Source: Xylographa opegraphella
Lineage: Eukaryota
Length of the DNA stretch: 64,000 bases
Direction: 5' to 3'
Assembly (NCBI GenBank): GCA_022813865.1
Contig: JALDZX010000008.1
Location: 62,001 to 126,000 of the forward strand
The notes beneath the pieces are model-generated. The model saw only the letters and a list, made by a program, of their open reading frames with translations, was not told the origin of the DNA and made no database searches. Of the stretch, positions 13,397 through 54,293 are shown one piece after another. The position numbers were made by a program, and so were the translations under genes. Numbering within the stretch: the first letter of the stretch is position 1; each line of letters opens with the position of its first letter.

Positions 13397-15467
13397 AAAG
13401 GCGTGGATCGTCTGAGCATTGTTGAGCTGGAATGGTTTAGATATCATGCGGTTGATGGGTGGCTTGACTGGGAGAACTTACTATCGTATATACCTCATGG
13501 GGAGATGAAGAGCAAGCGGGGGCCTTGCAATGCATCGAATGCGTAGCATTAGATGGCCTATTGTTAGTCTTAATACGATCCTTCACTTTCTCCTGCTCGC
13601 ACGTCTCGCAAGCCATATCAGCTCCGCTTAATCTTAAGAGCGATCACGATCGAGAATTGGTTCGTGTGTCTGAAACAGCGTGCTTGGTATCGTACATGGA
13701 TGTCCCTGGGCTACAATACCGAATTGGAATGCCTCTATGCAGAACGTGGAGCGACTTATCAGCCGCTTGGGTAATTCCTACCCATTGGTATCAAGATCCT
13801 GAACCCAGGTACTGCTGTGCGATGCCAGCTCAATCCAGGGTAGGATGAACTCTTGAATCATCGAATTTTACCATATTGAATCGCACGAAGAGGTAAGGGA
13901 CATCTGAGGCCTGTTCACAAGAAAGATCATTATATGCTTCCTTTTCCCATACGACTACTCGGCCAGCCGAGAACACATTCTATCGGGGCCATGCTGTCAA
14001 AGAATGCTGACACCTGATGCTCTCAATAATGCTATCGAGCAGAAATAATCCGAAACGTCCCATACGGTTCAGGATACAGACCGGTACTTGGAGGTACTGA
14101 GGGTAATCTCAGTGGACAGCAAGGGAGCTTTCGATATCGCTCGGGTTTACATACCGATAGCTGGGGGGGTGTCGGTTTTCTGAATACACCGGAAGCGCGT
14201 GCGCACTGAAGATTATATTGAATTAAATTGCTAGTAGGGCTCGCATCCAGGAAGGCGATCCTCTGTCCAACCTATTCCCACTAAGGATCAAACATCTGAA
14301 ATCTTCACCGCCTCAATCAAGCCGCCGATCACCAGGAACGTGGGGTATATCGCAAGTCGCATGTTTGTGTATTTAGTAACCGGTCTCACAGCTATGGCAT
14401 GTACGAGCCTACGAAGGTTCAAAGAACAACTACGCTGGTTGATAGCCTAAGATCTGCACTTTCTTGGGAATCGAAAATGGCCTGAACATACGTAGCAAAG
14501 ACAGACCAGAAGTGTTATAGTCAAGGACCACAGTTGGGTCGATGCTCCTGCGCATTTGACAGCGTCATCAATGTAAAAGGAAACTTGAAATAACCAACGT
14601 TTCCCTAAATAATAGGGTATTCTTAGGCAGCACGATTACAGTGCTATCTGGAGAAATGAAGATTAAGATTTCTTGGGGGGGTTCGGCATTTTAATCCTGA
14701 AGCAGGCAATTAGTATTGACTTGTACTTTCTTGGCTTTTGGGATTGACCTAATAGGTCTTGTCTTGGAAAAAGGAGTGTCATGCAACAGCGGAAGTGCTT
14801 GCAGCGGGCTCTTGATGGTACGGAAAGACTTCGAGCACGAGGCGATCATACGAGGTTGCTGGCCCGCGGTTACGTTGCGGGAATCAGCAGATGGAACTAG
14901 ATACTTTCCATCTGCAAGCATACATACTTGATCCAAACACATGTCAAATCTCCTGACGATATCGTAGCCAAGCATTTAATCAAAGTCAACAAATGTAGGT
15001 CGGAATAGATATACTTGAAGCGTTGCAGAACATTGCATCCATATGTCCTGCCATTATTCCCGCAGTGCTTGCTGTAATCAGAAGTTCAGGACGGAAATGC
15101 TAACAGACACAAGTTCTTGCCTAATATAAAGGGTTGAAAGACTCGACGGTGTTTGCACTCTTTGCACTTCCCCACAATCCACTAGGCTAGTGCCAGACTA
15201 GTGCTTTCGTACTAGTGCATCACGGAGCTTGTTGACACCACGCATTCCTTCCAAGCTTCCCACTTACCTCACTCGTCTTGATAAACCTCAACTCTTCACC
15301 TTACCTACAGAACTATTGTCAGTTGCAACTACAAAGCTCATCAAACCTACCGATTCTATCCATCAAACCCGTCTAACGACCAGCTCAACCTCTCTTCCAC
15401 TTATCAGTAAGTCCTCTCATCCACATCTTATAAACCCCAAAGCTAATTTTGTTCTTTCATTACAGCC

Positions 15468-15644
15468 ATGGGTAACGATATGTCTGCCGCGCGTAATGCT
15501 CGCGTTGAGAAAGCCAAGACCAAGGCCGCAAAAGCCACCAAGATGCGCGCTGTTGCTGCAAAGGCTCGCGCTGGCAGAGGCGGCGGAGCCGTCGGCACGG
15601 CCACCAAGACCAAAACACCTGCCAAGACTACCGCGGAGAAGTGA
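15468..15644 (+). CDS. 58-aa Lys/Ala/Arg-rich micro-protein with an MGxxxS N-terminus
   Basis: MGNDMSAARNARVEKAKTKAAKATKMRAVAAKARAGRGGGAVGTATKTKTPAKTTAEK*. Canonical 5'-UTR intron 15407-15465 (GTAAGT..GCTAAT..CAG) immediately before CCATGG; TATAAA near 15125; C/G-ending codon bias. Confidence 0.65.
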   Translation: MGNDMSAARNARVEKAKTKAAKATKMRAVAAKARAGRGGGAVGTATKTKTPAKTTAEK

Positions 15645-16130
15645 GCAAAAGGAGTCGAGAGTGGGTTGATGAGAGATTCGAGTTTCGGATTCGACTGAGA
15701 TAAGATTCTCAGGCATTCGGAAGGTTGTTCTGGGCATGAGAAGACCAATTTATGGAAGGGGTTGGTGCTTAGGAAAGTTGGGTTTAGGTGCAAGTGCGCT
15801 TGATATGGTGCTTGCTTTAAATGTTACCTTTTACTACGTGGAATATCTCAAACAATGATCGTGCGTGATGCCTATGGTCTGACCAGTCTACGCCTCTGTG
15901 GACATGTGATCCTTGTGATTGTTTCATAGAAGCTCCCCCGTTTACTCCGACAACGATCTCAATCTTACGCACTACCTCGTTTCTTCTCACTCAATAAACA
16001 TGCATGCCTAATGTCTTGCCAAATAATAACAGACTGGGAATTTCCTATGTGATTTCTTGAAGATGACCCCTAATTTTATGTTTTGAGGGCTAATTCAGGA
16101 TGGGTATATAACCCTAATAAGAACTAGTAC

Positions 16131-16316
16131 ATTCATCTAGCAACGAGTTAGCTCAAATGGTAAAGCGTGGCTGCTTCCAGCACCACGACAAATGATCCGA
16201 GGTTCGAATCCCGGTGATGAATTGTAGAAACGACCATCACCTCGAGTGAACTGGTAGCAAAATCACTTATAGTACAGTCGATTTTCATAAGATACCCTCG
16301 GGTATCTGAGCTTTTT
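16131..16316 (+). ncRNA. Pol III-type tRNA-derived element (degenerate tRNA-Gly(TCC)-like head plus a structured 3' extension)
   Basis: TATATAA 16105; A-box TAGCTCAAATGG 16149; B-box GGTTCGAATCC 16201; CTTCCAG loop closed by TGG(C)TG/CACCA; terminal hairpin 16290-16307; T5 run 16312-16316. Not a canonical cloverleaf. Confidence 0.6.
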
Positions 16317-16426
16317 GCTCTTTTGAAGTTCTATTCATCTGAGAAAGAAAACCAAGGTATATATAACACCTTCCCCATGTTAACTGATTCATAACCTAAC
16401 GCTAGAAACCCTTTCAATATACACCA

Positions 16427-17628
16427 TCACTCAGAATCGTAATCAACCAATGGCGGCTTCAAGACATCGACAACCGGAGCTGGGTCCTGCTGTTGCCTTT
16501 TCTCTTCTTCGGCTTCTGTCCGTTTCCTTTTGATGCCAGGCATTGCACCTGTAGAAACGAAGGCTGCTTGGTCGACAAGAAACGGGTCCATGACCGCTCT
16601 TGTATTCTGTTGGAGTTCAAATCGAAGGGCTTCCCGCTGTCGTTCGGCTACTTGCTCGGCCTTCAGCTTCTTTGATTTCTTCCCAGAGCTTACTCTGTCT
16701 TCCACACAGATGGATTCTGTGGGAAACAAAGGCTTCGCTCGAGCTTTGACAATTGCAACCTCACTACCAGCCGCTCCTAGACCCCCGAACTCTACAAAGC
16801 CGGCTCTTCTCCGATCCTCCTCGGTCTCGGGCAATAGTTCTATGCCAAGGCTCATTCTGTCCTTGAGCCCTTCGGTCAGAGCCAGGTTCTTTTCCCTGAC
16901 TTTCCTCTCCACTCTAAAACTCTTACGAAGCCTCCTACTCGCAGCGTACGGGTCATCCCAATCTCTGTCTCCTGCCTCCAGGAGTTCTTCAATCCTCCCC
17001 TTATCCGTCGCCGCCTGCTTCTTGTCTCCAACCTTCACCTCCAGCGCCGCAAAGGCATCATTCTGCAGCCTCTCCCTCTCCTCGTCTGTTCTAAGCACGA
17101 TCTCACCCTCATGCACCTTATCGTCCCCAGTGTCCCTCTTCTTCGCGCCCTCCATCACCACGTACGCAGTATTCTTGGGGTCCGTGCGTATCTCTATCCA
17201 ACCTCCGCAAGCGGTGTGCTTCATACGGAAACTGAATATAGGAGTGCTGTAATAGTTGCCAACCTTCTTCTTCTCCGCATTGAAGCGCACGCCTTGACCG
17301 ATGATGGTAGGTTTAGGGCAGGTCGTGCACCAGATCGGATAAGGCATCTCGAAGCGCACCGTAAGAATGCCTTGGCCGGCTTTACGGGCGCGATTGCCAA
17401 GGGCATGTCTGATCGGTATGAGAATGTGGAATGTACAAGGAGGGGAGCAACTCACTTGCCCGCCAGCTTGTTGGCTGATATGGTGCCTTCATGATCTGGT
17501 GGGACATAACTGTTCCGGCATTAGCTACGCAAGTCGGTGTGAAGTCGGTAGCAAATACCGTCCCATATCTGAGAGAAGTCAGTATATAGTGGACACAGAA
17601 GATGCAACGACATACTGAAACCCTGCAT
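16427..17628 (-). CDS. Saf4/Yju2 (CWC16, CCDC130-like) splicing factor
   Basis: Spliced MQGFNMGRYVPPD start, including a 10-nt micro-exon at 17559-17568; VRFEMPYPIWCTTC, GVRFNAEKK and IRTDPKNTAY motifs. Confidence 0.9.
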
Positions 17629-19087
17629 CTTGCAATGGAGAGCGCCTTTGGCGCAGGATTAGATGTTTCAAGGCGGCCGAACAACACTGCTGACCATCTT
17701 CCTGATAATCGCCGAGCCTACGCTTGATTTACGGGCGAGATCAATGGGTCGAAACCTGGAGGTTATGGGAATGAATGAGTGCGGAGTTAAGGATCAAAAC
17801 TCCATGCCGATTTCGCTAGCGCCATCCCTTTCTAGATGAGATTAGCCCCTTCTGAAATCTTCTGCTTTATGAGAATATCTCTCGAGCTACGGAGCACCGT
17901 CATCCTGTCTCGATAGAACTCTCAAAAGATGACTGCAGAAGTCATAATTCTATTGTCGGAGTGACTACAATCGAGGACACTATACTGTCTCTGACCGTGA
18001 CATAGTCTATTCACTACCGTACATTAGGAGTTGTCCGGCCTTTAGAATTTCCCTAGAATTCCTTTTCGCATTCTCCCCTTCTCTTCCTTTATTCAATGTT
18101 CGAAACTTTTAAGCCTCGAAGAATAGCTTCTTATGTTTACCACCAAATCTTTCTATTAGACAACAAACCGACTTTTTCCTTTCTAACGGTGGCTTTCATA
18201 TGTCCTAACAAGCTGGTCCACTAACTTGAGTAGGAGAAAATCCAGGGAAGGGTTTGTCTCCCGCTATAGAAACGTCTGGTCTCATAGATGCGCGGTATTT
18301 CCAGCTGTACGTGTGTTAGGTCGCCAAGTCCCCCCAGCTCAAGTGCAAGTTCGCGAGATTCGCATTACACGTCGTCAGGAGAATTTCCAGAGATATTTCG
18401 AACCGAGGATGACGATGCTTTAATGAAGAACGGGGTTTGGACATGAAATGCTCTTCGATCAGCTACAGATGCGTGGTAGCTGGGCTAGACTTTTCAGAGC
18501 TTGAGCCGGACGAGGAGATGAATAGACGAAGACCAGTCGGTTAGTATCAGAATATTCGTGTTGCTGTCGGCGGTGTAAATACAATGTTGTCTTGCTTGTC
18601 GGAGCCCCCAGCAGCACGGATACTGTTCCAGTCATCATATTTGCCCCTGTATTGGGTTTGATAAGGCATTCCAGCCTCTGCCAACGGGAACGCAAGTAAT
18701 ACCAACAACCTATGCCGTCTCGGTAACCACGACAAGGCGCTTGAGCTATTGCTTCAACAAAGAGGTTGAGCCATGCCCGAAGTGGCATGTGATAATTACT
18801 GCCAAGCTTGCGTAGCGCTGTATCCTATGTATTAATCATTTCTGATAAGACTTATGTTATCAGGCACCACTACGTAACAATGCTTTGCATTACGAGCAAA
18901 GGGCAATCAATCCGGCAAAAGTATGAGCACGGATAGCTGGCACAATTTAAATCCTTGAGATCTTCAGGGCAAGATGGAGGTTTTCCAGACTACGTGGCGC
19001 AATCTTTCTCGCCTTTCACGAAAAGCACGAACACAACTCTGAACACTTTTCTGATCCTTCAAAAGTCTCTTCCAACGTCCTTCCAGT

Positions 19088-20188
19088 ATGGCCAGGACGA
19101 TCAAAGTAGCTGCAGCCCAGGTCGGCGCCGTTCACGTCGACTCCGATCGCTCAGATACTCTCAAGCGTATGATCAAGCTCTTGGATGAAGCAGCTGGACA
19201 AGGAGCCCAATTGGTCCTCTTTCCGGAGTTGGCTTTCACAACGTTCTTCCCACGGCACCTTTTCAAAGACGATAGCAAACTAGAGGAGTTCTTCGAGCAG
19301 GGCGAAGACATATCAAAATCGGAACATGTGAAACCGCTCTTCGACCAGGCGGACAAGCTGCAAGTGGACATCTCCGTTGGCTTTGCTGAGCGAACCTCAC
19401 GTGGGACTGGTTACAACTCGTGCCTATACTACAGTGCCAAGCGAGGTGAGGTCCTAGCAAGGTACCGCAAGGTGCATCTCCCAGGGACAAAGGAGCCATT
19501 CGAGAATCCGGATGCCGTCCAGCAGCTCGAGAAGAGATATTTCGAGCCGGGCGATTTGGGGTTTAAGTCTTTCCGTGTTCCAGAGCTTATACCGGGAGCA
19601 CTGAAAGGTGACAGCTCCAACATCGACACCGTTGGGAAAGGAGATCCTATTGTTGGCATGATGATATGTAATGACCGCCGTTGGCCGGAAGCCTGGCGCT
19701 GCCATGGTCTACAAGGTGCTGAACTCGTGCTGTGTGGCTACAATACTGCAGGCTGGGCTCCCGACTTGTGGGGAACTAGGAAACCTATGACGAAAGAGCA
19801 GGCGCAGGAGGAAGCTTTGTTTCATCATCGATTGGTAATGCAATCGAACAGTTATATGAACGGATGCTTCTCGATCAGTGCCGCAAGAGCTGGACTTGAC
19901 GACGGCAAATTTGACTTAATAGGGGGAAGTTCTATTGTGAGCCCGGAAGGACATATACTGGTTGAGGCTAAGAGCAAGGACGACGAAGTCATCGTGGCGG
20001 AGATAGACCTCGAGGAGTGTAGGCAAGGGAAGGAGAAGGTTCGTTCCGTTGTCTTCATATTTCTAATGAACCGAAAGTCACTAACAGCTTTCAAGACATT
20101 CGACTTCGGTCGACACCGACGTACAGAAGCGTACAGTCTGATCACCTCACAAACAGGCGTAGTCGAGCCTCCGCTACTCGCGCATTAA
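19088..20188 (+). CDS. N-carbamoyl-D-amino-acid amidohydrolase (D-carbamoylase, nitrilase superfamily)
   Basis: Catalytic triad in FPELAFTTFFPR (E), YRKVHLPG (K) and ICNDRRWPE (C), plus LEKRYFEPGDLGF; these match the D-carbamoylase signature. In-frame 57-nt intron 20039-20095. Confidence 0.9.
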   Translation: MARTIKVAAAQVGAVHVDSDRSDTLKRMIKLLDEAAGQGAQLVLFPELAFTTFFPRHLFKDDSKLEEFFEQGEDISKSEHVKPLFDQADKLQVDISVGFAERTSRGTGYNSCLYYSAKRGEVLARYRKVHLPGTKEPFENPDAVQQLEKRYFEPGDLGFKSFRVPELIPGALKGDSSNIDTVGKGDPIVGMMICNDRRWPEAWRCHGLQGAELVLCGYNTAGWAPDLWGTRKPMTKEQAQEEALFHHRLVMQSNSYMNGCFSISAARAGLDDGKFDLIGGSSIVSPEGHILVEAKSKDDEVIVAEIDLEECRQGKEKVRSVVFIFLMNRKSLTAFKTFDFGRHRRTEAYSLITSQTGVVEPPLLAH

Positions 20189-20239
20189 GCGCAATACACA
20201 ATTTCCAAATTATCTCCAAACCATTACTCGTCCTTCTCA

Positions 20240-21106
20240 TCATACCCAACTCTGCCCTCTTCTCCGCCTTCCCTCTCCCGCACTCGCATACACTCCGCCC
20301 TTCCCCGTCCTCAACCCTTCCCTCACCAACCCAACCAAAAACTGCACCCCAACACCCACACCCTCCACAACCTGCACCCCGTCTCCGACCCTCTTCCCCA
20401 CCTTTTCCCGCAAGCCTACCATCCCCGCACATCCCAAACAAACACAATCCGCCCCACGCCCCACCAACCTCTCCCCGGCATCGCACATTCGCCTCGCCAC
20501 CTCCTCCGACTCTAGCGTCTCCAGCTCCAGTACCCCCATCCCCGTCCCCTCCGCACCTACACTGGACCCGGCCAGGCCGTACCCGCGGATCGCATCCTCG
20601 TGCATCACCACGCTGCGCGCCGCCGTCGCTACGATTCCCAACCGTCCGCCGAGCATGCGCGATGCGTACAGCGCCGCTTCCATGATGCCCACCACCGGCC
20701 CGGAAACCTCTTCCCGCAGCGCGGCGATGAGCGGATGCGCCGAGAAGCACGCGACCAGGAAGGCGTCAAATTTCGGCTTGCCGGTATTGGTACCGGACGC
20801 GCCAGCGGAGAGCTTCGAGCTCTCGGCCTCGTCGTGTAGATATGGTAGCAGAGCGCGGATACATTCCGCGGCGGAGAGCACGCCATCCAGGTGCCCTTCG
20901 ATGGCGGAAGGGGCGGGCGCTGGGGCGGTGAAGCCCGTGACGGTTACGCCCTGGGGGATGGTCGGCGCGAGGGAGGTGAGGCACGCGGTTGTCATGTGGG
21001 GGGTGGAGTTGGGGTTGATGAGCAGGATGGAGATTGGGGGGCGGGAGTCGCCGGTTATGCTAGGGAGGGCGGGGCTGGAGTTTAGGGTGGAGGCGGAGGT
21101 GGACAT
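20240..21106 (-). CDS. Hydantoin racemase (Asp/Glu/hydantoin racemase family, DCG1-like)
   Basis: ILLINPNST..MT, VACFSAHP and LGCAGM (two catalytic Cys), PVVGIMEAA. Confidence 0.9.
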   Translation of the reverse strand: MSTSASTLNSSPALPSITGDSRPPISILLINPNSTPHMTTACLTSLAPTIPQGVTVTGFTAPAPAPSAIEGHLDGVLSAAECIRALLPYLHDEAESSKLSAGASGTNTGKPKFDAFLVACFSAHPLIAALREEVSGPVVGIMEAALYASRMLGGRLGIVATAARSVVMHEDAIRGYGLAGSSVGAEGTGMGVLELETLESEEVARRMCDAGERLVGRGADCVCLGCAGMVGLREKVGKRVGDGVQVVEGVGVGVQFLVGLVREGLRTGKGGVYASAGEGRRRRGQSWV

Positions 21107-21891
21107 GTTGACGTGAGAATTGGGGTCGGTGGGTGAGTGCGCTGTCGGCTTGGTGGGTTGTGGTATGGACTTTGTGAAGAGGGCGGTTGTTGTTGCTTGT
21201 TCGCGCAGCGGAAAACGTTCAGGAGAGTCGTAGATAGGGCATGGTGATCATTACTTCGCATCTTACCCCATCCTTTATCGTGCAGCAGCTAAGGTAGGTG
21301 ATCTTTGCAGCGCTCGTGGGACTATTGCCTGCTACGTACGTGGCCGTTGATCCGGTCTCGTTCTGGAAACTCGTTGCGTGCTGGGCAGTCGGGCTATGAT
21401 ATCATAAGCCTTATCATAAAATACAGCTAGGATACGAGCCTACGGCTTCTCTCAAGAGCGGTTTCACCGGAGGAACCAAGTCCTTCGCTTAATTATGTCG
21501 AGGTGGTTTCTCCGGTCAAACCGGGTATGAATTATGTGTCAAAAAGGGGGTTTTGTGGCCCAGGAATAGGGGCACTATGTGAATATTTTTTTAAAGACGC
21601 CAAGATTTCAATAGAGAGTACCAAGGACAATTGAGAATATGCCCTGATCAGAGAACCATGCTATGCTGCAGAAATCCCAATCCGGGACGCCGGGGATATC
21701 GACCGCGTCAGCAACTTTCGCTGTATACGTCGTCCTACGTCAGAGAGTCCGTTCTTCAGAGCATAAGGGAGATTTCCTCACTGCAGTCACGCTTTCGGAG
21801 AGTACACAATTGGTGCGGCCTGAGGGCCTTCGACGCAGTTAACCAGGGGTCCAGAACAAATTTTCGGGCACCAGGAAAGTAGCAGCTCGTG

Positions 21892-51587: not shown

Positions 51588-52316
51588 ATGCAGCCAATCT
51601 TGCATTCCGAGCCGCGAGGCGGCCCGCTCTGCAAGATCTGGCGCACTCACGGCCCCGGAGCCAGCCGACGACGCGCCGAAATGAACGAGCTCCTCGAGTC
51701 GAGCAACGTCCGCTACCGCGGCGACCCAGCGATCCTCTACAACCGCAAAGCGGACGTCGAAGAGGCCCTCGACGCCTACGACAACAGGGTCTCAGCCCGC
51801 CACCACGCCGCACACGCACGCCGCGAACGACGCCTGCGCGAGCTCGAAGACCGCGAGCGCGAGGAGGAGCTCATGGCCGAGCAAGACGCCTACGACCGCG
51901 AACTCGACCACTACCACCAGCAGTACAGCGCCTACCAGAGCGGTTTCGCGCACGGCGGCTATGGCGCCTACTCCGACGGCTACGGCCGCGGCCGCTTGGA
52001 CGGCTACGACGACGGCTACGGCGTCGGCTACAGCGACAGTTATAATGATTACTACGACGGCTACGACGATGGCTGGGACGCCCGCTCCGATGATGGCTAT
52101 GGCCGCGAGGAGGATGCCTACTGGGGCGGCTGGAAGGATCGCGCGACGCACCGCGGACGGCGGGCGGGTCGGCGAGCGAAGCGCTCCGGGGCCAAGGCGG
52201 GGAGAGCGTCCAGTGTGCCGTCGGGCTGGGGGCGGATTACGTGGGATTATGAGAGGAGGGGGGTGCCGAATGGGTGGGTGGGCGGGTTTGCGGAGACGAT
52301 TTACGATGGGGATTAG
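51588..52316 (+). CDS. Hypothetical protein with coiled-coil and Gly/Tyr/Asp-rich repeats
   Basis: 242-aa GC-rich ORF with CACCATG context, pyrimidine-rich leader and strong C/G third-position bias. Confidence 0.65.
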   Translation: MQPILHSEPRGGPLCKIWRTHGPGASRRRAEMNELLESSNVRYRGDPAILYNRKADVEEALDAYDNRVSARHHAAHARRERRLRELEDREREEELMAEQDAYDRELDHYHQQYSAYQSGFAHGGYGAYSDGYGRGRLDGYDDGYGVGYSDSYNDYYDGYDDGWDARSDDGYGREEDAYWGGWKDRATHRGRRAGRRAKRSGAKAGRASSVPSGWGRITWDYERRGVPNGWVGGFAETIYDGD

Positions 52317-52607
52317 TTGTATGTGGTCTTGGCGTGGTTTGGTTCAAGGTCTTTGGTGGGTTTTGCGTCAGGGTCTGGCATTGCTCGGACGCGAAGTTCT
52401 CAGGAGCGGGAAAGAGAGCTTGGCGCTGAGATGGAGTACCTTTGCTAGCTTGCCTTTTGTATTGTAGAGCGAATACTACGTAGGTAGGGTAGTATGCTAG
52501 ATTTAGGAAGCGAATACTACTACTACTACTACTGCTCCGTACCTTATGCGAGATCGCACAGCACACAAGTCCCCCCACCCCAACCAACCAAGATCCCACG
52601 GCAAAGC

Positions 52608-54293
52608 TCACACCTTATAAAAGCAAAACGCATGATAAAAGCCCACGGCCTCGAGCTCCTCATCCGACAAGCGCAGCGGCCCCTCGGCGGCAGCTTGGAC
52701 CTGCATGCGCACGCTCAGCGGGCCGAGGACGGAATGGCGGCGCTCCTCGGCCCAGACGTCGGCGAAGGGCCGGCGGTACTGCAGCTCGAGGTTGTAGTCC
52801 TCCGCCAGCGCGCGGAAGGCCTCCCACGGCACCACGTACTCAGGCACCTCCTCCACCGCCTCCGCCATGAAGTAGCTGTACTTCCACCCGAACGGCGGCC
52901 GGAAGACGCCGTCCGCCGGCGTCGCGCCCGGGAAGCGCACGCGGTAGATGCTGTTGCCCCATTCGGGCACGGGCGCGTCGGGCGTGGTGGCGGCAGGGGC
53001 GCTGTCCTTGGGGTTGGGGGGCGCTTCGTCTGTGTGCTCGCGAGTCGCCGCCTCCTTTGTCGTGGTGGTGGTGGTGGCAGCGGCGGCCTGCGCCTGGTGA
53101 AAGGCCTCGACCTTGGCGCGCAGCACGTCCGAGTTCGGGATCACGCCGATGAGGCGGCCGCCCTTCTTCAGCGCGCCCGCCACGTTGCGCAGCATGCCGC
53201 GCGCCTTGGCCTCGCTCTCGAACGCGTAGTGCATGCAGAACATCATCGTGACAACGTCGAAGCCGCCGCCGCCCCACCGCACGCTGCCCCCGCCGCCGGG
53301 GCCCACGCTGCCGTCGATACCGACCTCCCGCACCAGCGGGATGTCTCCGATCCACTGGCCGTAGCCGTCCGCGGCGTAGAACTCGCCCTGGAAGATCCTC
53401 GTGTTCCCGCCGGCCCGGCCGCGCATCTCGGCGTATCGGTTCCGCGCCTGCTCGATCGACACCTCCGCCGGGTCGATCCCCACGTACAGCTCGACTCTTT
53501 GCGGCGCTTTCGCCCATTTGCCGAGATCGCCCCCTTTCCCGCATCCGATGTCTAGCACCAATATGCCCTTCCCTGGGTCCCTCCCTCCGGGAACGAACCC
53601 CTCGTTCGGTGAAAACTTCTGTATCAGAGTGCTCTTGACCCAATTGTTGTAGTTTCTTAACCCCTTGATGCGGCTTCCTGTCTGGCGCCAGTCGCGGCCT
53701 CGCTGGGGGACAGCATTGTAGTGCTGCCGGACGACATCGTGCACGCCACGTGTAGCGGCAACTGCCTGTGCGGTGGAGATCTGGTCTGCTTCTCGTTCGA
53801 TCTGCCGGTGGCGGAGGGCTTCCTTTTCGGCGGCAGCGATGCGGGAGGCTGCGCCGGGGCGTTTGCGCTCGCGAGGCGGAGATCGAGGCGGAGGGGTGGG
53901 CGATCTACGGCTGGGAGGCGGTGATTTTCGGAGCTTGGTTGGCGTTCGATCCTTCGAGTGTGGGGAGCGCTGGCGCTGGCGGGGGGGTGGAGGTGAGCGG
54001 CGGGCAGGGGCTAGCTTGATGCGTTTGTGAGAGCTTCCTGATGGGGAGGCCGCGCGTTTTCGGGATGTAGGAGGTGATGATGCATGGTCAGCTCGTTCGG
54101 GCTGAGTCGGAGGTGGAATTTCAGAAGGAGAGGCCGCTCGTTTGCGCGACTGTCGTTGAGATGACTCGTCCTTTGGAGCGGCGGTGGTGGGCTTGGCTTC
54201 CGTTGAGACATCGGTTAGTTGTGCTGGGTTCTCTTCTTCTGGTGCTGGTGCTTCGGCTGACGCGGTGAAGGTGTCACGAGCAGGATCGTACAT
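52608..54293 (-). CDS. ABD1: mRNA cap guanine-N7 methyltransferase
   Basis: VRQHYN, LRNYNNWVKSTLI, VLDIGCGKGGDLGKW, MFCMHYAFESE, VPEYVVPW, FYHAFCFYKV. Confidence 0.95.
   Translation of the reverse strand: MYDPARDTFTASAEAPAPEEENPAQLTDVSTEAKPTTAAPKDESSQRQSRKRAASPSEIPPPTQPERADHASSPPTSRKRAASPSGSSHKRIKLAPARRSPPPPRQRQRSPHSKDRTPTKLRKSPPPSRRSPTPPPRSPPRERKRPGAASRIAAAEKEALRHRQIEREADQISTAQAVAATRGVHDVVRQHYNAVPQRGRDWRQTGSRIKGLRNYNNWVKSTLIQKFSPNEGFVPGGRDPGKGILVLDIGCGKGGDLGKWAKAPQRVELYVGIDPAEVSIEQARNRYAEMRGRAGGNTRIFQGEFYAADGYGQWIGDIPLVREVGIDGSVGPGGGGSVRWGGGGFDVVTMMFCMHYAFESEAKARGMLRNVAGALKKGGRLIGVIPNSDVLRAKVEAFHQAQAAAATTTTTTKEAATREHTDEAPPNPKDSAPAATTPDAPVPEWGNSIYRVRFPGATPADGVFRPPFGWKYSYFMAEAVEEVPEYVVPWEAFRALAEDYNLELQYRRPFADVWAEERRHSVLGPLSVRMQVQAAAEGPLRLSDEELEAVGFYHAFCFYKV

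What the first reader, a model, noticed from the sequence alone, without database searches (positions are those of the whole stretch)
16102..16340. Pol III tRNA-headed RNA carrying box C/D motifs: tRNA-snoRNA dicistron, SINE or novel ncRNA
Seen: TATA box, intact A and B boxes and a T5 terminator, but a broken cloverleaf (11 extra nt after a possible acceptor strand ATTCATC 16131 pairing with GATGAAT 16216, and bulges in the anticodon and T stems). Right after the B box is a box C match GTGATGA (16214); a box D match CTGA (16306) lies just before the T run, spanning about 96 nt. Hairpins: GGTGATG/CATCACC and AGATACC-CTCG-GGTATCT. ATTCATCT also flanks the unit as an 8-bp direct repeat (16131 and 16333), like a target-site duplication. 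Established: plant tRNA-Gly-snoR43 dicistrons, Pol III-transcribed yeast snR52 and tRNA-derived SINEs all have related layouts. Which applies here is unresolved.
Basis: partly seen in the sequence, partly recalled or inferred. Interest (0 to 1): 0.7.

Follow-up and report, generated by a model that had tools for sequence, protein, structure and literature searches.

The report
Dispersed tRNA-derived small RNA gene family
The element is not a snoRNA but one of at least 18 scattered, diverged copies of a tRNA-derived small-RNA gene in a lichen-forming fungus; the copies keep their promoters, terminators and folded shape, as working genes would, although no transcript has been seen.

Summary
The motifs are at the stated places, but the C/D and target-site readings fail. 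The unit is one of at least 18 dispersed copies in this genome (a Xylographa-like lichen fungus): 12 share its tRNA-like head (family A), 6 have another head (family B), and all 18 end in the same two-hairpin module, GAAC and a T-run. Box C occurs in 1 of 18 copies; the 'box D' is a stem arm that reads CCGA or TTGA in 5. Copies keep what a Pol III transcript cannot carry: TATA at about -30 (13 of 18, background 1-2%) and a second T-run (13 of 18 against 4 of 47). Stem changes keep pairing (73 of 121, 35 expected). No common target-site duplication, A-tail, tail-only copy or LINE partner was found. Best reading (0.6): a selected multigene family of Pol III small RNAs spread by DNA-level duplication, akin to Yarrowia RUF70 or rodent 4.5SI; main rival an old SINE (0.22). 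Expression and conservation in other species are untested.

The parts
16105..16111 (+). TATA box, 30 nt upstream of the predicted start
   Evidence: Strict TATA at -28 to -31 in 13 of 18 copies; 12 of 540 and 31 of 2939 flank windows; 22 of 30 tRNA genes have one
16117..16122 (+). ATAAGA upstream element (about -18 to -13), outside the transcript
   Evidence: [ATG]GA at this place in 18 of 18 copies against 6 of 24 tRNA genes; in family A the motif was used as an anchor, so only the 6 of 6 in family B is free of that
16135..16315 (+). Predicted Pol III transcript, about 181 nt (start inferred, may lie 2-5 nt further up)
   Evidence: C|A at TATA+30 as in the other copies; fold z -3.39; no reads seen
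16133..16137 (+). 5' strand of an acceptor-like 5-bp helix, pairing with 16213-16217
16135..16163 (+). P1 region holding the A box (16149-16160); a two-part hairpin in the family, eroded in this copy
   Evidence: 89.7% of cells paired, 4 of 9 pairs with changes on both sides, 12 copies
16166..16187 (+). P2, the former anticodon arm: 9 bp with a one-base bulge, loop not an anticodon loop
   Evidence: 97.2% of cells paired in 12 copies
16197..16214 (+). T-arm with B box (16201-16211)
   Evidence: Sequence; only part that Rfam tRNA/tmRNA models pick up, below threshold
16213..16241 (+). Variable hairpin; holds the chance box C match GTGATGA (16214-16220)
   Evidence: Length and sequence differ in every copy; box C in this copy only
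16257..16286 (+). 3' module, hairpin 1 (G-C, bulge, 9 bp, loop TATAGTAC)
   Evidence: 90% of cells paired, 3 of 10 pairs with changes on both sides
16290..16307 (+). 3' module, hairpin 2; its 3' arm supplies the CT of the supposed box D
   Evidence: 94.8% of cells paired; A-T to G-C in L128, L133 (A) and L127 (B), C-G to T-A in L126
16312..16324 (+). Terminator T5 (16312-16316) and second T4 (16321-16324)
   Evidence: T5-6 in 18 of 18; second T4 within 14 nt in 13 of 18 against 4 of 47 other T5 runs; 18 of 30 tRNA genes
16333..16340 (+). Second ATTCATCT; not a target-site duplication
16427..17488 (-). Neighbouring Saf4/Yju2 gene; the unit lies between the 3' ends of two convergent reading frames (the other ends at 15645)
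   Evidence: PF04502 E 1e-69; closest named homologs Xylographa spp., 85-91% identity

Best explanation
A member of a lineage-restricted multigene family of tRNA-derived small RNAs made by RNA polymerase III. Shown: at least 18 dispersed intergenic copies of two head types on one 3' module, each with tRNA-gene-like promoter and terminator, and stems that keep pairing through substitutions. Inferred from known Pol III biology: TFIIIC binds the A and B boxes, TFIIIB the TATA at -30, Pol III starts near 16135 and stops in the T5, giving a 156-273 nt RNA (181 nt here) with an oligo-U end. Inferred, weaker: the decayed tRNA head serves as promoter and folding scaffold, and the working part is the shared module of two hairpins plus GAAC-UUUU, a protein-binding platform; it may be released by RNase Z behind the acceptor-like helix, as RUF70 is behind tRNA-Trp (about 1 in 3). 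The copies multiply as DNA, with promoter and terminator, and are gained and lost like dispersed tRNA genes; the window's copy keeps promoter, P2 and tail but has eroded P1 and lost P3.
For: 18 of 18 tail matches carry a head, none is cut at the 5' side. TATA 13 of 18 against 12 of 540 (Fisher p 6e-16) and second T-run 13 of 18 against 4 of 47 (p 8e-7). Identity between copies is 0.50-0.51 over -34..-1 (shuffled 0.28-0.29) and at background beyond -35 and beyond +20; promoter identity 0.50-0.53 within families against 0.39 among tRNA genes, and 4 of 81 within-family pairs align 22-39 nt further upstream (scores 16-20; control 99th percentile 10, maximum 16). Tail 92.1% and head 89.1% of cells paired, 0 and 1 of 500 shuffles as high, slid controls 19-49%. 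Of 121 changed stem cells 73 still pair, 34.6 +/- 4.7 expected at the observed transition share, 0 of 5000; 20 of 26 double changes pair. Flanks are ordinary DNA of 43-57% GC while 20 of 21 RT matches lie in 18-32% GC degraded stretches.
Against: No transcript and no ortholog in another species was seen. The family A tree is nearly a star (1 of 9 inner branches supported), which also fits a burst from a master copy. Changed cells are not independent events, and at a transition share of 0.9 the excess of kept pairs vanishes (1006 of 5000); double-change cells in the head are weak alone (27 of 500). Family B does not fold better than shuffles (z -1.7 to +1.8). 5 of 18 copies have only a degenerate TATA. 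Promoter identity does not track body identity (rho -0.12 in A), and A-versus-B promoter identity (0.42) is barely above the tRNA level. Repeats of 6 nt or more flank 3 of 18 copies against 3.9% in mismatched pairs (p 0.03). Two heads on one stem-loop tail is the usual build of SINE families (PMC3747384).
Confidence: 0.6

Rival explanations
1. Two old tRNA-type SINE families with a shared LINE-derived stem-loop tail, ending in T. Structure was kept while master copies were active; the partner LINE has since been erased by repeat-induced mutation.
For: Head plus shared 3' stem-loop tail is the stringent SINE/LINE plan (PMC3747384, passages); star-like tree; copies are short enough to escape repeat-induced mutation (recalled threshold of about 400 bp); 3 of 18 copies with 6-7 nt flanking repeats; other agents filed similar fungal units as SINEs (unchecked notes).
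Against: A Pol III transcript cannot copy -34..-1, yet the copies share it at fixed spacing; 0 of 18 with an A-tail; 0 tail-only copies among 18 tail matches; the 20 non-telomerase RT matches read as Ty3/Gypsy-type, none as LINE (by eye); no tail in 119,538 bases around them with a mutation-tolerant pattern or with model R1 (best E 0.11).
Confidence: 0.22
2. Solo LTRs or other remnants of a mobile unit that regenerates its own upstream promoter (Helenus-type TRIM, or a non-autonomous DNA element).
For: Would explain inherited upstream sequence; Ty3/Gypsy-type remnants are present; Helenus LTRs hold tRNA-like promoters (PMC10886601, parts 1-3).
Against: No fixed TG terminus (at most 4 of 18 at one position), one 8-nt primer-site-like word in 18 copies; no excess of flanking repeats around the promoter-inclusive unit (mean 4.50 against 4.55); no shared terminal inverted repeat; a T5 plus T4 stop would end transcription inside the LTR; Helenus keeps only promoter boxes, whereas here stems outside the boxes are kept.
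Confidence: 0.08
3. The copies matter as DNA: TFIIIC/TFIIIB-bound sites acting as chromatin barriers between genes, the RNA being a by-product.
For: Promoter and terminator are kept in most copies, and the copies are intergenic (14 of 18 overlap no stop-free frame of 120 codons).
Against: Does not explain kept pairing in P1, P2 and the tail or the near-invariant 55-nt head of family B.
Confidence: 0.06
4. tRNA-snoRNA dicistron releasing a 96-nt box C/D guide.
For: GTGATGA and CTGA are present in this copy, behind a T-arm and an acceptor-like helix.
Against: Box C in 1 of 18 copies, CTGA in 13 of 18; box D lies in a stem and changes with its partner; the leader is not a tRNA; no Rfam snoRNA above 17 bits.
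Confidence: 0.02

Closest known systems
tRNA-Trp-RUF70 dicistronic genes of Yarrowia lipolytica (PMC2566860; passages and passages of supplement 1; PMC5014426 passages)
   Same: Fungal, 13 dispersed copies, tRNA-type promoter in front, about 70-nt structured 3' RNA with compensatory changes among paralogs, T-run end, function unknown, no homolog found elsewhere
   Different: There the leader is the intact, essential tRNA-Trp and the processed RNA was seen on northerns; here the head is a non-functional tRNA derivative with its own refolded stems, two heads share the tail, and nothing is shown to be made. RUF70's alignment is in a figure that I could not see, so homology is untested
SINE-derived Pol III RNA genes of narrow range: 4.5SI, 4.5SH, BC1, snaR (PMC3440375, passages)
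   Same: A/B-box promoter helped by 5' flank, built-in T terminator, few to many gene copies, restricted lineage, unclear function
   Different: Mammalian; each traces to a known, abundant SINE. Here no parent SINE or promoterless copy was found
Fungal tRNA-type SINEs (AfuSINE2, Mg-SINE, SINE2-1_BG; PMC5063351 parts 2-3 of 6, PMC3747384 passages)
   Same: tRNA-related head, 140-490 nt, low copy number in A. fumigatus
   Different: Those have target-site duplications, degenerate boxes and, in the clear cases, a Tad1 LINE tail; none of these was found here, and no likeness to the listed AfuSINE sequences was apparent by eye (not aligned)
Plant tRNA-Gly-snoR43 dicistrons and yeast snR52 (as described in PMC2566860; the original papers not read)
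   Same: Pol III promoter in a tRNA-like leader, structured RNA behind it
   Different: No conserved C/D boxes; leader is not a functional tRNA
Neurospora milR-4 and gammaherpesvirus tRNA-miRNA genes (PMC3547838, passages)
   Same: Pol III, tRNA-like part followed by hairpins, possible RNase Z step
   Different: Tail stems here are 8-10 bp, too short for a Dicer substrate (recalled requirement)
Helenus TRIMs (PMC10886601, parts 1-3 of 6)
   Same: tRNA-like promoter in a dispersed fungal repeat
   Different: No LTR termini, primer site or 5-bp duplication; described from rusts and Agaricomycetes in the parts read

Membership tests
Box C/D snoRNA (tRNA-snoRNA dicistron, snR52 type) | Conserved box C RUGAUGA near the 5' end | tested here: not met
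   1 of 18 copies
Box C/D snoRNA (tRNA-snoRNA dicistron, snR52 type) | Conserved box D CUGA free to form a kink-turn | tested here: not met
   13 of 18; its first bases lie in hairpin 2 and change with the partner
Box C/D snoRNA (tRNA-snoRNA dicistron, snR52 type) | 10-21 nt guide complementary to rRNA or snRNA | not tested
   rRNA was not fetched; against U6 and 30 tRNAs the longest complement was 8-11 nt, shuffles 8-10
Box C/D snoRNA (tRNA-snoRNA dicistron, snR52 type) | Intact tRNA leader (plant type) | tested here: not met
   No ARAGORN call; Rfam tRNA 14 bits against 29
tRNA-type SINE (SINE2) | tRNA-derived head with A and B boxes | tested here: met
   (parent tRNA not identified among 30 genes)
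tRNA-type SINE (SINE2) | Dispersed copies | tested here: met
   18 copies on 12 contigs
tRNA-type SINE (SINE2) | Target-site duplications | tested here: not met
   1 of 18 with 8 nt, 3 of 18 with 6 nt or more at unlike positions; old copies could have lost them
tRNA-type SINE (SINE2) | Homology confined to the transcript | tested here: not met
   Shared -34..-1 and second T-run; 4 of 81 pairs align further up
tRNA-type SINE (SINE2) | 3' tail shared with a LINE; A-rich or repeat tail | tested here: inconclusive
   No LINE-type RT among 21 matches, no tail near them, no A-tail; the assembly may lack repeats and the search gives lower bounds
tRNA-type SINE (SINE2) | Insertion polymorphism between strains or species | not testable with these tools
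   No related fungal genome is held
Helenus TRIM | LTR termini, primer-binding site, 5-bp duplication | tested here: not met
Y RNA / stem-bulge RNA | Ro60 (TROVE) partner in the genome | tested here: not met
   0 matches to PF05731, control rang in 2 of 14 genomes; genome may be incomplete
RUF70-type tRNA-led RNA | Intact tRNA leader | tested here: not met
RUF70-type tRNA-led RNA | Paralogous 3' RNA with compensatory changes and T-run end | tested here: met
RUF70-type tRNA-led RNA | Processed stable RNA in vivo | not testable with these tools
   No run was listed
Any Rfam 15 family | Score at the gathering threshold | tested here: not met
   Window and 8 loci holding 4 A and 4 B copies

The most novel reading that the evidence does not exclude
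An unrecognised class of modular Pol III RNAs in filamentous ascomycetes: one conserved 3' two-hairpin module that assembles a ribonucleoprotein, joined to exchangeable 5' domains that give different specificities, kept as a multigene family of a size within the range of this genome's tRNA gene set (18 against at least 32 tRNA genes). The many low-copy tRNA-headed units noted by this scan in other fungi and filed as SINEs would then be further members or parallels.
Probability: 0.22. Interest if true: 0.85.

Novelty: new variant of a known kind. Interest (0 to 1): 0.62.

Why it matters
The Pol III gene set of filamentous fungi is usually given as tRNA, 5S, U6, SRP RNA, RNase P RNA, snR52 and a few milRNA loci (recalled; partly in PMC3547838 and PMC5014426). 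A family of 18 promoter-complete, structurally constrained genes in a 24.7-Mb lichen fungus would be a sizeable unlisted part of that set. It also offers a sequence-only way to tell working Pol III genes from dead SINE copies in fungi (shared TATA at -30, second T-run, kept pairing), and invariant probe sites in both families make the first test a single northern blot.

Tried and rejected
RNA runs: none was listed for window 15400-16500, which is no evidence either way; no reads were laid. Relatives: one exact tail pattern in JGI metagenomes gave 1 match, a chance hit in bacterial-looking coding DNA without head or hairpin 2; a tail pattern gave 0 in viral contigs and 0 in prokaryote genomes; look-ups of earlier scan findings by sequence and place found 0 look-alikes. 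These collections hold few or no related fungi, so range is unknown. The RNA model could not be run over the whole genome, so the copy count rests on blastn and patterns and is a lower bound. Model R2 and the pair count used a misregistered structure and were dropped; one search is the corrected count. The mutation-tolerant tail pattern failed its own check (0 of 18) and was redone (18 of 18). Dropped as chance: 3 of 15 head-pattern matches (L099, L105, L106; control 3), 2 of 17 tail matches (L116, L122), and 28 of 34 family B head matches (control 18; 24 of the 28 were fetched and screened for a B-box word, 3 had one and none looked like a member by eye). Parent tRNA: not identified; family A scores alike against all 30 tRNA genes fetched (best Ala 43, next 40), family B is nearest the initiator-Met-like gene L023 (30.5, next 24.8, z 2.7), inconclusive. 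Y RNA likeness of helix P3: no TROVE gene and P3 is not in family B. H/ACA: hairpins too short, no terminal ACA (by eye). Likeness to U2 and U6 words: short, by eye, not pursued. Ten literature searches showed no description of this family; the library lacks most subscription papers, and Repbase, Dfam and SINEBase could not be searched. RUF70's sequence is in a figure and supplement file 2 was not searchable, so a direct comparison was not made.

Full report
Setting. The window is G000:C220:62001-126000 of a 24.7-Mb fungal genome in 241 contigs. The neighbouring Saf4/Yju2 protein has its closest named homologs in Xylographa species, 85-91% identical, so the host is a lichen-forming fungus in or near that genus. 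The unit lies between the 3' ends of two convergent reading frames.

The observation. It is not a tRNA and reaches no Rfam threshold. The predicted 181-nt RNA folds better than all 200 shuffles.

It is one of a family. Blastn found 9 matches at 71-100% identity; a second query and patterns raised this to 12 copies with the same head (family A). A pattern for the 3' end found 18 places, against 1 in the reversed control: the 12 A copies and 6 copies with a different head (family B). All 18 tails carry a head, and the 6 best matches to the B head carry a tail. Body identity is 0.65-0.89 among 11 of the 12 A copies (one tandem partner left out) and 0.69-0.90 among the 6 B copies. The count is a lower bound. 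Flanks are ordinary DNA of 43-57% GC.

The snoRNA reading fails. RTGATGA occurs in 1 of 18 copies, the window's, inside a hairpin whose length and sequence differ in every copy. CTGA is present in 13 of 18; its first bases belong to the 3' arm of the last hairpin and change with the partner base (A-U 6, G-C 3, G-U 2, unpaired 1 among 12 A copies). I did not test rRNA targets.

The target-site reading fails. The first ATTCATCT overlaps the family's 5' end, downstream of a promoter that the copies share. It is the only repeat of 8 nt among 18 copies (0 of 306 mismatched flank pairs reach 8 in that test, so it is unusual, but it stands alone). Repeats of 6 nt or more flank 3 of 18 copies against 3.9% of mismatched pairs (p 0.03), which tells slightly for a SINE, but they sit at unlike distances from the T-run. 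No copy has an A-tail.

The copies look like working Pol III genes. A strict TATA lies 28-31 nt before a C|A step in 13 of 18 copies, against 12 of 540 nearby and 31 of 2939 wider flank windows; 22 of 30 tRNA genes fetched have one, so this fungus uses upstream TATA boxes at Pol III genes. The other five copies have degenerate versions at the same place. I chose the C|A by motif, so its invariance is by construction, and the true start may lie a few bases further up. A second element at about -15 is in 18 of 18 copies against 6 of 24 tRNA genes; it was an anchor in family A, not in B. A second run of four T follows the terminator within 14 nt in 13 of 18 copies, 4 of 47 other T5 runs and 18 of 30 tRNA genes. 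Identity between copies is about 0.5 over -34..-1 and falls to background beyond -35 and beyond +20. Within families the promoter is more alike (0.50-0.53) than among tRNA genes (0.39), and 4 of 81 within-family pairs align for a further 22-39 nt upstream, 2 of 81 for 20-22 nt downstream (control 99th percentile 10, maximum 16; observed 16-22). A Pol III transcript cannot carry such sequence, so the copying was most likely at DNA level (inference). Against: promoter identity does not track body identity, and A against B (0.42) is barely above the tRNA level.

The RNA structure is constrained. In 12 A copies the tail hairpins are paired in 92.1% of cells with 12 double changes (0 of 500 shuffles; slid controls 19-49%) and the head helices in 89.1% with 8 double changes (1 of 500 for pairing, 27 of 500 for double changes). 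Stem positions change about as often as unpaired ones (0.146 against 0.164), yet 73 of 121 changed cells still pair, where 34.6 +/- 4.7 are expected at the observed transition share of 0.43 and 51.6 at 0.7 (0 of 5000 each); only at 0.9 does the excess go. Cells are not independent events, but the same A-T to G-C change in hairpin 2 appears in both families. In 10 A copies an acceptor-like 5-bp helix pairs in 43 of 50 cells, and a competing 7-bp helix P3 pairs 6-7 of 7 in 6 copies and 3 of 7 in the window's. Family B has a near-invariant head of about 55 nt that forms one long hairpin, then a fast-changing C-rich middle with a B box; whole B transcripts do not fold better than shuffles, while A transcripts do (z -1.5 to -4.1). 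The window's copy keeps promoter, P2, T-arm and tail, with P1 eroded and P3 lost.

No mobiliser was found. RVT_1 gave 21 matches from 25 candidates. One is an open frame that I read as telomerase (recalled motifs); the other 20 lie in 18-32% GC stretches with stops and read by eye as Ty3/Gypsy-type, none as LINE (recalled motifs). The tail was not found in 119,538 bases around them (overlapping loci) with a mutation-tolerant pattern or with model R1 (best E 0.11). LTR termini and primer sites are absent. The assembly may lack repeats, so an extinct LINE partner is not excluded, and the star-like tree of family A (1 of 9 inner branches supported) fits a burst as well as short, saturated sequences.

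How it most likely works. Shown: layout, copy number, shared flanks, kept pairing. Inferred: transcription by Pol III from about 16135 to the T5; an oligo-U end; the head as promoter and scaffold; the 3' module, the only part common to all 18, as the protein-binding working part; possible release by RNase Z behind the acceptor-like helix (about 1 in 3); gain and loss of copies as in dispersed tRNA genes. The partner protein is unknown; Ro60 was not found.

Comparison. The nearest fungal parallel is RUF70 of Yarrowia lipolytica: 13 dispersed copies behind tRNA-Trp, compensatory changes among paralogs, processed and stable, function unknown (PMC2566860, passages and passages of supplement 1; PMC5014426, passages). 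It differs in having an intact tRNA leader. SINE-derived Pol III RNA genes such as 4.5SI and BC1 are the functional parallel (PMC3440375, passages). Fungal SINEs (PMC5063351, parts 2-3 of 6; PMC3747384, passages), Helenus (PMC10886601, parts 1-3 of 6) and milR-4 (PMC3547838, passages) each fail a defining test. The survey of structured fungal RNAs (PMC5640933, passages only) showed nothing alike in the passages read. Ten searches found no description of the family; Repbase and Dfam could not be checked. Earlier notes of this scan list similar low-copy units in other fungi, mostly filed as SINEs; they are unchecked leads, and none matched this sequence.

Verdict. A real feature, larger than the finding: a two-subfamily, promoter-complete, structurally constrained family of tRNA-derived Pol III genes, probably functional (0.6), possibly old SINEs (0.22), not a C/D snoRNA. 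New variant of a known kind; interest 0.62, limited by the lack of expression data and of a second species.

Noticed in passing
G000 C1:625264, C2:146585, C13:171204, C57:129569, C172:24592, C178:182784 (L126, L127, L130, L132, L137, L138): Family B: same tail and promoter layout, different head of about 55 nearly invariant nt folding as one long hairpin, C-rich middle with B box and short internal duplications; weak, inconclusive likeness of the head to the initiator-Met-like tRNA gene L023.
   Followed up: partly
G000:C13:122958-123718 (L004): Two family A copies in tandem about 550 bp apart, 69% identical, sharing 37 nt of downstream flank; the second has an altered B box and tail and may be decaying.
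   Followed up: partly
L070:1501-1660 (G000:C198:307326): The U6 gene has TATA upstream and an intron-like insert near its 3' end that holds a B-box word; recalled to resemble fission yeast U6.
   Followed up: no
L071-L091: 20 of 21 reverse-transcriptase matches are degraded, AT-rich Ty3/Gypsy-type remnants, pointing to strong repeat-induced mutation; no LINE-type RT was seen; L080 is an open telomerase-like frame.
   Followed up: partly
L020-L049: The tRNA search gave only 32 matches (lower bound), and the 30 fetched all differ in sequence, most with an upstream TATA; the new family is thus large beside the tRNA set.
   Followed up: no
window 15400-15645 +: Short Lys/Ala/Thr-rich reading frame ending just upstream of the unit; no Pfam match.
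   Followed up: partly
window 19055-21247: Convergent frames that look by eye like a carbon-nitrogen hydrolase (19055-20188 +) and a hydantoin racemase (20240-21247 -) (names recalled, not scanned).
   Followed up: no
window 52001-54000: GC rises to 65% against about 50% around it.
   Followed up: no
window 16354-16368: A second TATATA word with GG before and AAC after lies 40 nt behind the terminator and resembles the upstream TATA context; unexplained.
   Followed up: no
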